From Escherichia coli (GTDB taxonomy: Bacteria > Pseudomonadota > Gammaproteobacteria > Enterobacterales > Enterobacteriaceae), in the NCBI RefSeq assembly GCF_044324785.1, contig NZ_CP172127.1: a DNA stretch of 64,000 nt; one strand, given 5' to 3'. Below, one piece after another: positions 24,001 to 27,000 of the stretch (the stretch's first letter is position 1; each line of letters opens with the position of its first letter). Made by a program: the position numbers.

Positions 24001-27000
24001 TCAGCAGGACCGTAAAATTGAGTTGATTGTTAATAACATCGCGAACGTGCCGGAAGAGAACAACCACAGCCATGAAGCCAGCGCCCAGGCAGATGGCGTT
24101 GATGGTGTGGTGATGGATCTCGATGTAACCGACAGCTTTGGCGATAACACCGACCGCAACGGCGATGCGCTGCCGGAAGATAACCTCACGCCGCAGCTTT
24201 ACGACGCGCAGGACAAACGAGTGACGTTAACCAACAAGCCTTGCTCGACCGACAACCCCTGCGTTTTTATCGCTAAACAAGATAAAGAAAAGGGCACTGT
24301 CACCCTCTCCAGTACCTTACCCGGCACCTATCGCTGGAAAGCAAAAGCCGCGCCCTACGACGACAGTAACTATGTGGATGTCACTTTCCTCGGGACAGAA
24401 ATTGGTGGGCTAAATGCATTTATCTATCGTGTGGGGGCAGCTAAACCCAGCAACCTGATAGGTAAAGATAAAGAACCGCTGCCGCTCAACAACACTTATC
24501 GATTTGTTTTGTGGCGTGACAGCAATAAAGACGGTGTCTTCCAGCAGGTCGAAAAACTGACTGACGAAGAGATGGCGCAGTACGACTACAAGTGGGAATT
24601 TACCGGCAAGAGCATCAATGGTGAAGTGGGTGCACAGGCGAACACATCCAATGAGGACATTGTGATTCCGGCCACTAACCGCGAAGCGGCGCAAACCTAT
24701 GGCGCACAAGCGGGAGATGGCTTGCAGGGATACGGTTTACGCGTGCTGTATACCAAAAAATAAGATTGGCGTAAGGCCAGTCGGCCAGTCGCTGAAGGTT
24801 CATTAAGGAGAGCATCAATGAAGCAGGATAAAAGACGCGGTCTGACCCGGATCGCATTGGCGCTGGCATTGGCAGGTTATTGTGTGGCACCTGTGGCGCT
24901 GGCGGAAGACAGCGCATGGATAGATAGCGGAGAAACCAATATTTTCCAGGGGACCATTCCGTGGCTCTATTCGGAAGGGGGAAACGCTACGACAGATGCC
25001 GACCATGTAACGTTGACTTCTGATCTAAAAGGCGCTCGCCCGACAGGCAGTGAAACGGACAAGCGTCTTTACTCGGGTGATAAATTAACCGTAAGTTGGG
25101 AAATTGGTGATACCGAAGGCGACGTGGATCTTGGGGTATTGGGCGATAACGCAAAGACTATCGATACTATCCGCTGGATGAGCTACAAGGACGCTCAGGG
25201 TGGCGATCCGAAAGCGCTGGCAACGAAGGTGACCAGTTACACTCTTACCGATGACGACCGTGGTCGTTATATCGGTATTGAAATTACGCCAACCACGCAG
25301 ACCGGTACGCCAAACGTCGGGAATGCGCTGCATCTTTATGACGTTTCCACTGCCAGCGGCGGAGGAAGCGACAGTGACAACGTTGCGCCAGGGCCGGTAG
25401 TTAACCAGAACCTGAAAGTCGCCATCTTTGTTGATGGTACCAGTATCAACCTTATCAACGGCAGCACGCCAATCGAACTTGGCAAAACCTACGTGGCCAA
25501 ACTGTACTCGGATGAGAACAAAAACGGGAAGTTTGATGCGGGTACCGATGCTGACGTTACCGCCAATTATGACTTCCGTTGGGTACTTTCTGGCAGCAGC
25601 CAACAGCTCGGCACCTCGGCTGGTATCGTTAACTCAAGCTTCGATAATAACAATCTGGTCATCCCGAAAACCAACGACGAAGCCAGAACCAACCTTAACG
25701 GCCCTGCGCGCGATGGTAAAGAGGCTCTTACCATCCCGACAAACGGCGACGGGGTACAGGGGTACAAACTTCACATTATTTACAAACACAAATAACGCGT
25801 ACTCAGCAGCATTCCCGCAAGGGAATGCTGTTTCCGCATATTTTGCTTAATCCCGAATTAAGCAAAATATGTTGATGCGACAAGCGTCCGTTTAACAACC
25901 GGTGGAGTTTCTGTCATGTCCCTGACCCTGAATAAAATCCTTGTGTTATGCGCATTGCTGATAAGCGCAATGCTGCCTGGGTGGTCATGGGCAGAATCTG
26001 CATGGCAAGACTCTTCAGATACCGTAGGTGAATTTAACGGTACCGTGCCCACCGCCGACAGTGCCAGCATACCCGTCTACCAGGGCAGTGTTTTTCTGGA
26101 TCCTGCAAAGACGCATGAGGTAGCGTTTACCGCTAAACCGAGTGAATTTAGCGCGGATGTTAGCGTCTCTAAATTGCTCGTCACCAATCCGCAAGACAGA
26201 GAAGGCGATATCATTGCCACCCCACGTTGGGAAAACCAAACGCCACCGACAGTATCTTTAGTTTGGGCGGATGCAGCGACGCCGGACACCTTACTGGACC
26301 CACAGCCAGTCGCAGATCGCTCGTTTTGCGCTCAGGGACTTGCCGGGCGTTCGTTGATCGCCTGGGCGCAGCCAGACTCCCAGCAGACCATGCCTCTGTT
26401 ATATCTACTTACCTCGACGGGCTATCCCTATGAAAGTGTTCTGACGCTCGCCGATCAGAAAGTGACGCTGAAGATTGCGCCCGCGCAGGGTGACCTTATT
26501 TCCGTCAGCGCCGCGGGCTATGACGAATCCTCCGGTGCGGCGAAAACGACGGTTGGCGGCAGTATCACGTTAACGGTCACTACCAAAGATTGCGTCGGTA
26601 ATGTTGTGGGGAATATTCCTTTTGTTATCAAACGCAAAGATGCTGAAAACCGCCAGGGTGTGGTGAACAATACTGCGCCTGTAAAACTGGGCACGACCGA
26701 ATTAACCACCACCGCGACGGAATATCGTGGTACTACCGATGCGAATGGTGTTGCCACGGTTACGGTCACCCAGGCCAACGGCCCTGGTGTAAAAACGCCG
26801 TTGGTCGCGAGCCTCGCGGGTATTGCTCAGACCAGTGAAACGGCAGTGATCTTTACCGTCCTCACCAGCCCGGATGTCCCGCAGGCTACAATGTGGGGTC
26901 ATATGCCCGATACGCTGAAGGCCCGTGATTACACTTTTAGTCGACCAAAACTGGCGACGGAAGTCGATAATGAAGACGGTACGGTTAACGATCACAATGA

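What the first reader, a model, noticed from the sequence alone, without database searches (positions are those of the whole stretch)
24400..26100. SinI is a free-standing paralogue of the SinH C-terminal passenger region and shares an N-terminal motif with RatA
The SinH C-terminus (YRFVLWRDSNKDGVFQ...YDYKWEFTGKS...IVIPATNREAA...GDGLQGYGLRVLYTKK) aligns with the SinI C-terminus (YVAKLYSDENKNGKFD...YDFRWVLSGSS...LVIPKTNDEAR...GDGVQGYKLHIIYKHK). Separately, mature SinI begins AEDSAWIDSGETNIFQGTIPW and mature RatA begins [22 protein letters not shown] shared post-signal-peptide motif on two secreted proteins encoded next to an outer-membrane barrel protein could mark a common docking or export interaction, which would make the three genes one functional system.
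Basis: seen in the sequence. Interest (0 to 1): 0.5.

Follow-up and report, generated by a model that had tools for sequence, protein, structure and literature searches.

The report
Shared N-terminal tag on SinH partner proteins

Summary
The window is E. coli chromosome, ordered der | sinH | sinI | ratA-like | xseA, and RefSeq annotates all three genes. Both observations hold.

1. SinH 641-735 aligns with SinI 218-325 (BLASTP E=6e-12; z=20 against shuffles). This paralogy is already published, as is the idea that SinI and Rat proteins are ZirTSU-like partners of SinH.

2. The tag after the signal peptide is weak in the single pair (E=0.07 with signal peptides; z=6.6 for the mature segments). 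It is strong at family level:
- It is present in SinI and in RatA/RatB-like proteins in all 23 loci examined.
- A tag-only profile comparison gives 97% probability (E=2e-11), and nothing aligns once the tag is removed.
- SinI and RatA tag variants change together across loci, without DNA-level gene conversion.
- A reduced core follows the signal peptide of barrel-less partner proteins in the six distant inverse-autotransporter operons examined.

I did not find the tag described in the papers I could read. Its function is inferred, not shown: a recognition element for SinH-dependent export or surface docking. AlphaFold2 gave only weak support.

Verdict: a known system with one apparently undescribed detail that can be tested directly. 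Interest is moderate.

The parts
22586..24763 (+). sinH (iatB), an intimin-like inverse autotransporter of 725 aa. The mechanical ORF starts at a TTG at 22556; RefSeq starts at the ATG at 22586.
   Evidence: NCBIfam NF033423 inverse_SinH scores 1486.9 bits against a cut-off of 999. RefSeq annotation of the 100%-identical strain N3.
22772..23593 (+). SinH beta-barrel translocation domain
   Evidence: Pfam IAT_beta PF11924, E=2.5e-108, residues 73-346 of the 735-aa ORF.
24440..24760 (+). SinH terminal passenger domain, called 'Ig-like domain 3 / RBD' by Xing 2023. This is the part that is paralogous to the SinI C-terminus.
   Evidence: BLASTP E=6e-12. partner_SinI HMM hits residues 629-732 at E=4e-21. 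z=20 against shuffles. Domain naming from PMC9937491.
24818..25795 (+). sinI, a SinI family autotransporter-associated protein of 325 aa with no beta-barrel
   Evidence: NF040711 scores 335.3 bits against a cut-off of 165. RefSeq annotation. 54-bp gap after sinH with no terminator-like site on the + strand.
24818..24904 (+). SinI Sec signal peptide (residues 1-29, ...PVALA|E)
   Evidence: By inspection: basic n-region, hydrophobic core, AxA site. Conserved across the 27 aligned SinI proteins. No predictor was run.
24905..24982 (+). SinI N-terminal tag (residues 30-55: EDSAWIDSGETNIFQGTIPWLYSEGG). Core pattern: W-x(7-9)-[ST]-x-x-x-[IF]-[QN]-G-T-x-P.
   Evidence: Conserved in the SinI family. 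Tag-only hhalign against the RatA tags gives Prob 97.3%, E=1.9e-11. pLDDT below 50 in the AF2 model of SinI alone.
25004..25357 (+). SinI domain 1, a beta-sandwich (about residues 63-180). It is ZirU-like and is a repeat unit in giant adhesins.
   Evidence: AF2 model. NF040485 ZirU_fam E=5e-7, below its cut-off. Up to 27 copies per protein among representative-library hits. Foldseek gave only generic Ig/FnIII matches.
25439..25792 (+). SinI C-terminal domain (residues 208-325), a paralogue of the SinH terminal domain. It ends in GDGVQGYKLHIIYKHK.
   Evidence: Confidently folded in AF2, pLDDT 80-96.
25805..25872 (+). Two strong RNA hairpins in the 120-bp sinI-ratA spacer. One has a 12-bp G+C-rich stem followed by a U-rich tract; the other has a 16-bp A+U-rich stem.
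   Evidence: RNA fold -47.2 kcal/mol against -27.5 +/- 3.2 for shuffles, z=-6.2. Function not tested.
25916..33955 (+). ratA-like giant adhesin of 2679 aa with BIg21/InvE_AD repeats and no beta-barrel
   Evidence: NF011844 'RatA-like protein' scores 5398.9 bits against a cut-off of 3870. Pfam BIg21 and InvE_AD begin at residue 214. RefSeq calls it 'adhesion domain-containing protein'.
25916..25993 (+). RatA Sec signal peptide (residues 1-26, ...GWSWA|E)
   Evidence: By inspection. It is not similar to the SinI signal peptide.
25994..26071 (+). RatA N-terminal tag (residues 27-52: [26 protein letters not shown])
   Evidence: No Pfam domain covers residues 1-213.

Best explanation
sinH-sinI-ratA is one module. 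It encodes a type Ve (inverse) autotransporter and two Sec-exported partner proteins that have no barrel of their own.

SinI arose by duplication of the SinH terminal passenger domain. In SinI that domain follows an Ig-like repeat domain and a tag of about 26 residues placed directly after the signal peptide. RatA, and RatB in Salmonella, carry the same tag at the same position.

The tag is most likely the element that commits these proteins to the SinH pathway. Either it is recognised in the periplasm for SinH-dependent translocation, playing the role that the TPS domain plays in two-partner secretion, or it docks the partners non-covalently on the SinH passenger at the cell surface.

What is shown: the paralogy, the existence and conservation of the tag, its position, its restriction to a short segment, the joint variation of SinI and RatA tags within loci, and its recurrence next to distant inverse autotransporters.

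What is inferred: that the tag binds SinH (or SinI), and that export or anchoring depends on it.
For: Locus and families
- Locus identity and gene order. Family assignments above the curated cut-offs.
- No terminator-like site on the + strand between sinH and sinI. A review reports that sinH and sinI are co-transcribed (PMC12525524).
- Paralogy.

The tag in SinH-type loci
- It is present right after the signal peptide in SinI and in the downstream Rat-like ORF of all 23 loci where those ends are available. This includes both Rat paralogues of Leminorella, and RatA plus RatB of Salmonella.
- An HMM built only from SinI tags ranks 16 Rat-like ORFs directly after the SinI proteins among 3508 six-frame ORF segments. 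The reciprocal search behaves the same way.
- Tag-only profile-profile comparison gives Prob 97.3%, E=1.9e-11. With the tag removed it gives Prob 2.7%.

Selection acts on the tag itself
- The signal peptides in front of the two tags are dissimilar.
- Only 60 of 164 identical residues use the same codon, so gene conversion is not the cause.

Joint variation
- Loci whose SinI tag is 'xAW..SG.T.EFQGT' have a RatA tag '..W....ST.EFNGT'. Loci whose SinI tag is 'NLKSGQWQ....STGTIQGT' have a RatA tag 'ALKSGxWQ....STDAINGT'.
- The prediction held in an independently fetched locus, L021.

Generality
- Distant SinI-like proteins carry the core [ST]x[ST]G.I.G..P[VW][IL] after the signal peptide.
- In L024-L028 and L030 every barrel-less protein after the inverse autotransporter carries it. 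These include two lectin-like proteins of about 360 aa and a 1695-aa protein.

Structure prediction
- In AF2 the tag is unstructured when SinI is modelled alone (pLDDT 33-48).
- In a fusion of SinH passenger, SinI and the RatA N-terminus, it gains partial order (pLDDT 57-68), with beta-bridges at homologous positions in both tags.

Precedent
- ZirS secretion depends on ZirT (PMC2270342). That paper noted that ZirTS lacks a TPS-like N-terminal signal.
Against: - There is no experimental evidence, here or in the papers I could read, that SinI or RatA localisation depends on SinH.
- Goh 2019 found that IatB (SinH) mediates biofilm formation without the downstream protein.
- The AF2 fusion model is poor overall (mean pLDDT 61.9, pTM 0.38). 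No coordinates were returned, so the partner of the tag's beta-bridges is unknown.
- Nearly identical SinH terminal domains co-occur with different tag types (L015 against L021). The tag variants therefore do not track that domain.
- Joint variation across about 23 related loci is partly explained by shared phylogeny.
- I could not test whether ZirS or ZirU, the only partners with proven transporter-dependent secretion, carry the tag.
Confidence: 0.6

Rival explanations
1. Plug-and-socket chain, a specific form of the docking idea. The tag is a 'plug' that binds the terminal passenger domain, the 'socket'. SinH has a socket only, SinI has a plug and a socket, and RatA/RatB have a plug only. 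SinI would then be an adaptor that extends SinH and presents RatA, or polymerises head to tail.
For:
- In 8 of the divergent systems examined, the small partner's C-terminal domain copies the C-terminal domain of its own transporter. This holds even where that domain is of a different type (L027).
- The third proteins carry the tag but no such domain (L026, L030, Rat proteins).
- Tsai 2010 proposed that co-encoded ORFs extend the passenger.
- In the AF2 fusion both tags form two short beta-bridges at homologous positions. An isolated bridge residue also appears just before the first strand of each terminal domain: P641 in SinH, and the neighbouring aligned position I219 in SinI, which is not a bridge in the SinI-alone model.
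Against: - The AF2 evidence is weak, and the binding partner cannot be identified from it.
- SinI modelled alone does not dock its own tag on its own terminal domain.
- Near-identical SinH terminal domains tolerate different tag types (L015 against L021).
- A 2679-aa protein would still need a route across the outer membrane, which this model does not supply.
Confidence: 0.2
2. The tag works independently of SinH. It could be a general periplasmic handling element for large Ig-repeat proteins, for example a chaperone-binding or anti-folding segment or a signal-peptidase context. It could also be a structural cap of the first domain.
For: - The tag lies directly after the cleavage site.
- Its core, a hydrophobic residue then x-G-x-x-P, is short and could serve a generic role.
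- AF2 gives part of the RatA tag pLDDT 54-70 next to a confidently folded RatA N-domain, so it might pack on its own domain.
Against: - It was found only on barrel-less proteins encoded directly after an inverse autotransporter, across very different partner architectures.
- There were no hits among the other roughly 3500 ORF segments of the loci.
- The domains that follow the tag are unrelated in SinI and RatA, so a structural-cap role would have to suit different folds.
- In SinI alone the tag is unstructured.
Confidence: 0.15
3. The similarity is a relic of common ancestry or of recombination at the gene 5' ends, with no present function.
For: sinI and ratA are adjacent, so a duplication could have copied a 5' segment.
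Against: - The signal peptides in front of the tags are not similar.
- The tag is kept from Escherichia to Leminorella, and a core is kept in far more distant systems, while the flanking sequence diverges completely.
- Codon usage at identical residues differs (60 of 164 the same), which argues against recent conversion and for selection on the peptide.
Confidence: 0.05

Closest known systems
Salmonella CS54 island sinH-sinI-ratA-ratB(-shdA), and E. coli iatB/sinH ('ila') locus
   Same: It sits at the same chromosomal site between der and xseA, in the same gene order. SinH, SinI and RatA-like all score above the NCBIfam cut-offs. The Salmonella locus L022 shows the same tag on SinI, RatA and RatB.
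   Different: This E. coli allele has one 2679-aa Rat-like gene and no ratB or shdA. Its tags are the short 'AW...EF' variant rather than the 'LKSGQWQ...I' variant found in Salmonella and Citrobacter.
ZirT/ZirS/ZirU of Salmonella: an inverse-autotransporter-like transporter with secreted partners
   Same: A barrel protein is followed by Sec-dependent, barrel-less partners related to its passenger domains. SinI domain 1 gives a weak ZirU_fam hit (E=5e-7). Heinz 2016 and Goh 2019 draw the same analogy.
   Different: SinI scores 30 bits against the ZirU_fam cut-off of 100, so it is not a member. ZirT-dependent secretion is shown by experiment; SinH-dependent secretion is not. I could not check whether ZirS or ZirU carry the tag.
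Two-partner secretion (type Vb): the TPS domain of TpsA recognised by TpsB
   Same: The substrate carries a conserved N-terminal recognition element straight after a Sec signal peptide, and is encoded next to its outer-membrane transporter.
   Different: SinH is a 12-stranded IAT_beta barrel with no POTRA or Omp85 match. The tag is about 26 residues, not a TPS domain of about 250 residues. Neither partner has an NPNL/NPNGI motif.
Donor-strand N-terminal extension of chaperone-usher pilins
   Same: A short N-terminal segment after the signal peptide precedes an Ig-like body. It has a conserved glycine and alternating residues (I/F-x-G-x-V-x-W). The idea of non-covalent head-to-tail assembly is shared.
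   Different: There are no chaperone or usher genes in the locus. A conserved proline sits inside the segment. Nothing shows that the terminal domains have an incomplete fold. The resemblance comes from memory and sequence pattern only.
Yfr4 operon of Yersinia frederiksenii (Tsai 2010)
   Same: An inverse autotransporter is followed by several small signal-peptide proteins proposed to extend the passenger. The distant loci L024-L030 have this layout and carry the tag.
   Different: Tsai 2010 does not use the SinH, SinI, RatA or RatB names (0 occurrences) and I saw no tag described in the passages returned. I did not retrieve the Yfr4 operon itself.

Membership tests
Inverse autotransporter (type Ve), SinH equivalog | N-terminal IAT_beta barrel followed by a C-terminal passenger, with a score above the NF033423 cut-off | tested here: met
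   Pfam PF11924 E=2.5e-108. NF033423 scores 1486.9 bits against 999.
SinI family autotransporter-associated protein (NF040711) | HMM score above the curated cut-off | tested here: met
   335.3 bits against 165, covering residues 7-322.
SinI family autotransporter-associated protein (NF040711) | Encoded immediately downstream of a SinH-type inverse autotransporter, with no barrel of its own | tested here: met
   54-bp gap after sinH. No IAT_beta or other barrel domain in Pfam. The same arrangement holds in the fetched loci whose contig includes the region upstream of sinI.
RatA-like protein (NF011844) | Full-length HMM score above the cut-off, with BIg21/InvE_AD repeats | tested here: met
   5398.9 bits against 3870. 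BIg21 and InvE_AD from residue 214.
ZirU family (NF040485) | HMM score above the curated cut-off of 100 bits | tested here: not met
   30 bits, covering residues 69-210 only. SinI shares a domain type with ZirU but is not a ZirU family member.
ZirTSU-like transporter-plus-partner secretion system | Inverse-autotransporter-type barrel protein with co-encoded Sec-dependent, barrel-less partners related to its passenger | tested here: met
ZirTSU-like transporter-plus-partner secretion system | Partner secretion or surface exposure strictly depends on the barrel protein | not testable with these tools
   Shown for ZirS and ZirT (PMC2270342). No such data for SinH with SinI or RatA in the papers I could read.
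Two-partner secretion (type Vb) | Omp85/TpsB transporter with POTRA domains | tested here: not met
   IAT_beta is the only Pfam match in SinH.
Two-partner secretion (type Vb) | TPS domain with NPNL/NPNGI motifs at the substrate N-terminus | tested here: not met
   No NPN[LGI] in the first 350 residues of SinI or RatA. No TPS-type Pfam hit.
Chaperone-usher donor-strand assembly | Periplasmic PapD-like chaperone and an usher encoded with the subunits | tested here: not met
   The locus holds only sinH, sinI and ratA between the yfgJ-like zinc-ribbon gene (downstream of der) and xseA.

The most novel reading that the evidence does not exclude
Inverse autotransporters of the SinH type anchor a modular, non-covalently assembled surface structure. 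The N-terminal tag acts as a donor-strand-like plug that inserts into the terminal passenger domain. Because the small SinI-like adaptor carries both a plug and a copy of that domain, it can extend the chain, or polymerise, and present giant or lectin-like tagged adhesins such as RatA. This would be a pilus-like assembly principle within type V secretion.
Probability: 0.12. Interest if true: 0.8.

Novelty: already known. Interest (0 to 1): 0.42.

Why it matters
SinH is an ExPEC fitness factor and a vaccine candidate. RatA and RatB belong to the Salmonella CS54 island, which is described as holding intestinal colonisation and persistence determinants.

How barrel-less giants such as RatA cross the outer membrane, and whether inverse autotransporters really serve co-encoded partners, has been an open hypothesis since 2008-2016. 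Gal-Mor 2008 pointed out that ZirTS has no TPS-like recognition signal.

A short, conserved, position-fixed tag on every partner protein is a concrete candidate for that missing signal. The hypothesis can then be tested by tag deletion, point mutation or transplantation. The tag would also help annotate partner proteins of inverse autotransporters in other genomes.

Tried and rejected
- Domain-level homology of the SinI and RatA N-terminal regions. A first hhalign gave Prob 68.6% over about 150 residues. After removing the first 26 residues it fell to Prob 2.7%, so the similarity is confined to the tag.
- Gene conversion between sinI and ratA. Rejected: only 60 of 164 identical residues share a codon.
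- Solved-structure relatives. The PDB sequence search found nothing (best E=0.89). Foldseek of the SinI model gave only generic Ig/FnIII tandem matches, none at E<=1e-3.
- N-glycosylation sequon. 'NGT' occurs in Rat tags, but SinI tags have Q, E or K at that position, so it is not a shared feature.
- TPS motifs. Absent.
- The protein search with RatA 1-200 returned only truncated or frameshifted fragments. I used genomic loci instead.
- I ran no further search on a tag profile. A 24-column profile cannot reach significance against 5.8 billion sequences.
- Kingsley 2003 and Prehna 2012 are not in the library. I did not locate the paper that reports sinH-sinI co-transcription. Their content is cited only through Heinz 2016 and a 2025 review.
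- I could not obtain ZirS or ZirU sequences to check for the tag.
- The AF2 fusion returns no coordinates or PAE, so the tag's contact partner could not be identified.
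Full report
**What is there**

The window is E. coli chromosome, 100% identical to strain N3 over 22300-26300. About a third of complete E. coli genomes have a match to this stretch: 1700 of 5426, and 933 cover at least 80% of it.

Between der and xseA lie three co-oriented genes that RefSeq annotates as follows:
- sinH (22586-24763), an intimin-like inverse autotransporter.
- A 'SinI family autotransporter-associated protein' (24818-25795).
- An 'adhesion domain-containing protein' of 2679 aa (25916-33955).

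All three pass the curated NCBIfam cut-offs: inverse_SinH 1486.9 against 999, partner_SinI 335.3 against 165, and RatA-like 5398.9 against 3870. SinH has an IAT_beta barrel (E=2.5e-108). SinI has no Pfam domain. RatA has BIg21/InvE_AD repeats from residue 214 onward.

The gaps between the genes are 54 and 120 bp. No terminator-like site was found on the + strand between sinH and sinI.

**Observation 1: SinH C-terminus and SinI C-terminus**

This is confirmed.
- BLASTP aligns SinH 641-735 with SinI 218-325: 35% identity, 53.5 bits, E=6e-12.
- Against 1000 shuffles the Smith-Waterman score is 137, compared with 30 +/- 5 (z=20).
- Each family's NCBIfam model cross-hits the other protein, at E=4e-21 and E=2e-10.

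The shared unit is the last passenger domain of SinH, which Xing 2023 called Ig-like domain 3 or receptor-binding domain (PMC9937491).

The AlphaFold2 model of SinI (27-sequence alignment, mean pLDDT 73) has these parts:
- A beta-sandwich domain at about residues 63-180.
- A GGGSDSD linker.
- The SinH-like domain at about residues 195-325, with pLDDT 80-96.
- An unstructured first 62 residues.

This paralogy is not new. Heinz 2016 states that it 'was previously documented for SinH' by Kingsley 2003, and generalises it to ZirT/ZirS/ZirU and to Yfr4 (PMC4943183).

**Observation 2: the motif after the signal peptide**

As a single pair it is marginal. BLASTP gives E=0.07 when the signal peptides are included. 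The mature segments score z=6.6 against shuffles (0 of 5000), and the N-terminal window is the best of 2648 windows along RatA.

At family level it is solid. I collected 20 genomic loci with SinI relatives, from Escherichia, Pseudocitrobacter, Citrobacter, Superficieibacter and Leminorella. I added further loci by exact-protein look-up, including Salmonella.

- Wherever the N-termini are present, both SinI and the downstream Rat-like ORF carry the element directly after the signal peptide. This includes both Rat paralogues of Leminorella, and both RatA and RatB of Salmonella.
- An HMM built only from SinI tags, without signal peptides, was searched against 3508 six-frame ORF segments of the window and loci. 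It ranks 16 Rat-like ORFs straight after the SinI proteins, before any background hit. The reciprocal search behaves the same way.
- Profile-profile comparison of the 28 tag columns gives Prob 97.3%, E=1.9e-11. After deleting the first 26 mature residues nothing aligns (Prob 2.7%).

So this is a discrete tag of about 26 residues, not a shared domain. Its consensus is W-x(7-9)-[ST]-[TG]-x-x-[IF]-[QN]-G-T-x-P.

**Evidence that selection acts on the tag**

- The signal peptides in front of the two tags are unrelated.
- At residues that are identical between the SinI and RatA tags of the same locus, only 60 of 164 use the same codon. DNA-level conversion is therefore not the cause.
- Tag variants change together. 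Loci whose SinI tag is 'xAW..SG.T.EFQGT' have a RatA tag '..W....ST.EFNGT'. Loci whose SinI tag is 'NLKSGQWQ....STGTIQGT' have a RatA tag 'ALKSGxWQ....STDAINGT'.
- I tested this on a SinI (P0034) whose body resembles the second group but whose tag reads '[11 protein letters not shown]'. Its locus was fetched afterwards, and its RatA indeed reads 'SSTAEFNGTPPT'.
- Shared phylogeny accounts for part of this. A near-identical SinH terminal domain also occurs with both tag types (L015 against L021), so the variants do not track that domain.

**Generality beyond SinH**

A full scan of 1.84 billion representative proteins with the SinI profile gave 449 hits. Two results matter here.

First, SinI domain 1 is a repeat unit that occurs up to 27 times in giant proteins.

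Second, many distant SinI-like proteins of about 300 aa begin, after the signal peptide, with a reduced core [ST]x[ST]G.I.G..P[VW][IL]. Most of them also end in a G-[VIA]-Q-G-[YF]-x-L domain like that of their transporter.

Their genomic contexts show the same layout:
- L026 and L030: an inverse autotransporter, a SinI-like protein, and a lectin-like protein of about 360 aa. Both partners are tagged.
- L024: a transporter fragment, a SinI-like protein and a 290-aa protein, both partners tagged.
- L025 and L028: two-gene systems.
- L027: a transporter followed by proteins of 237 aa and 1695 aa. These start 'T.TVKGRAPTL' and 'TSAAIRGRAPVV'. The 237-aa protein's C-terminus copies the transporter's C-terminus, although that domain is of a different type.

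The rule appears to be this. The transporter ends in domain X. The small partner is tag plus a middle part plus domain X. Any further partners are tag plus an effector part.

**Mechanism**

The literature already proposes that SinI and Rat-like proteins are ZirS/ZirU-like substrates or passenger extensions of the inverse autotransporter (Heinz 2016; Goh 2019; Tsai 2010).

Gal-Mor 2008 noted that ZirTS lacks a TPS-like N-terminal recognition domain. Heinz 2016 called Rat-like N-termini 'highly divergent'. I found no description of the tag in the papers I could read.

The best-supported reading is that the tag is the common recognition element of this pathway. Whether it acts in the periplasm as an export signal, or at the surface as a plug into terminal domain X, is open.

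My one structural test was an AlphaFold2 fusion built on 19 paired rows. It joined SinH passenger 344-735, a linker, SinI 27-325, a second linker and RatA 24-163.
- The model was poor overall: mean pLDDT 61.9, pTM 0.38.
- The SinI tag rose from pLDDT 35 and 48 when modelled alone to 68 and 57 in the fusion.
- Both tags formed two short beta-bridges at homologous positions: SinI I35-D36 and I42-F43, RatA Q31-D32 and E39-F40.
- No coordinates are returned, so the contact partner is unknown. I treat this as weak support only.

**Comparison and verdict**

The locus is a member of the SinH, SinI and RatA families by the curated scores. It works like ZirTSU by layout, but SinI is not a ZirU family member (30 bits against a cut-off of 100). 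It is not a two-partner secretion system: there is no POTRA/Omp85 match, no TPS domain and no NPNL motif. It has no chaperone-usher genes.

The system and the paralogy are already known. The family-wide N-terminal tag is, as far as I could check, an undescribed detail that makes the partner-secretion hypothesis directly testable. Interest is moderate, at 0.42.

Noticed in passing
window 25805-25872 (sinI-ratA spacer): Two strong adjacent RNA hairpins. One has a 12-bp G+C-rich stem followed by a U-rich tract; the other has a 16-bp A+U-rich perfect palindrome. MFE is -47.2 kcal/mol, z=-6.2 against shuffles. They could be an attenuator or processing site that lowers ratA expression relative to sinH-sinI.
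   Followed up: partly
window 25004-25357 (SinI residues about 63-180): SinI domain 1 is a repeat unit found up to 27 times per protein in giant proteins of 1000-6400 aa from the representative library. It also gives a sub-threshold ZirU_fam hit.
   Followed up: partly
window 24470-24520 and 25480-25530: Both terminal domains contain a D-x-N-x-[DN]-G-x-[FY] loop (SinH 'RDSNKDGVFQ', SinI 'SDENKNGKFD'). It is conserved in the family alignment and resembles an EF-hand-like calcium-binding loop. Not tested.
   Followed up: no
L027 4988-13088: A distant system: an inverse autotransporter with a TSP3_bac domain, followed by proteins of 237 aa and 1695 aa that both carry the tag core. The 237-aa protein's C-terminus copies the transporter's C-terminus, but that domain is not the SinH domain-3 type.
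   Followed up: partly
L015 6291-7319 (Escherichia albertii): This SinI tag lacks the otherwise near-invariant tryptophan ('NLKSGASYTMSGSTGGINGTVPW'), while the adjacent RatA tag keeps it.
   Followed up: no
L001 (JAIJJM010000381.1): A 3.1-kb contig labelled 'MAG: Collinsella sp.' carries sinI-ratA 97% identical to E. coli. This is probably a binning error in the metagenome-assembled genome.
   Followed up: no
window about 45000-54400: A cluster of phage-like ORFs downstream of guaBA. Read by eye, it holds replication-type proteins and a terminase-like 491-aa ORF at 52911-54386. It looks like a prophage and is unrelated to the finding.
   Followed up: no
H4-H10 (E. coli genome hits): In several E. 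coli genomes the sinH-sinI region is interrupted by IS5 or IS1203 insertions, which suggests the locus is often inactivated.
   Followed up: no
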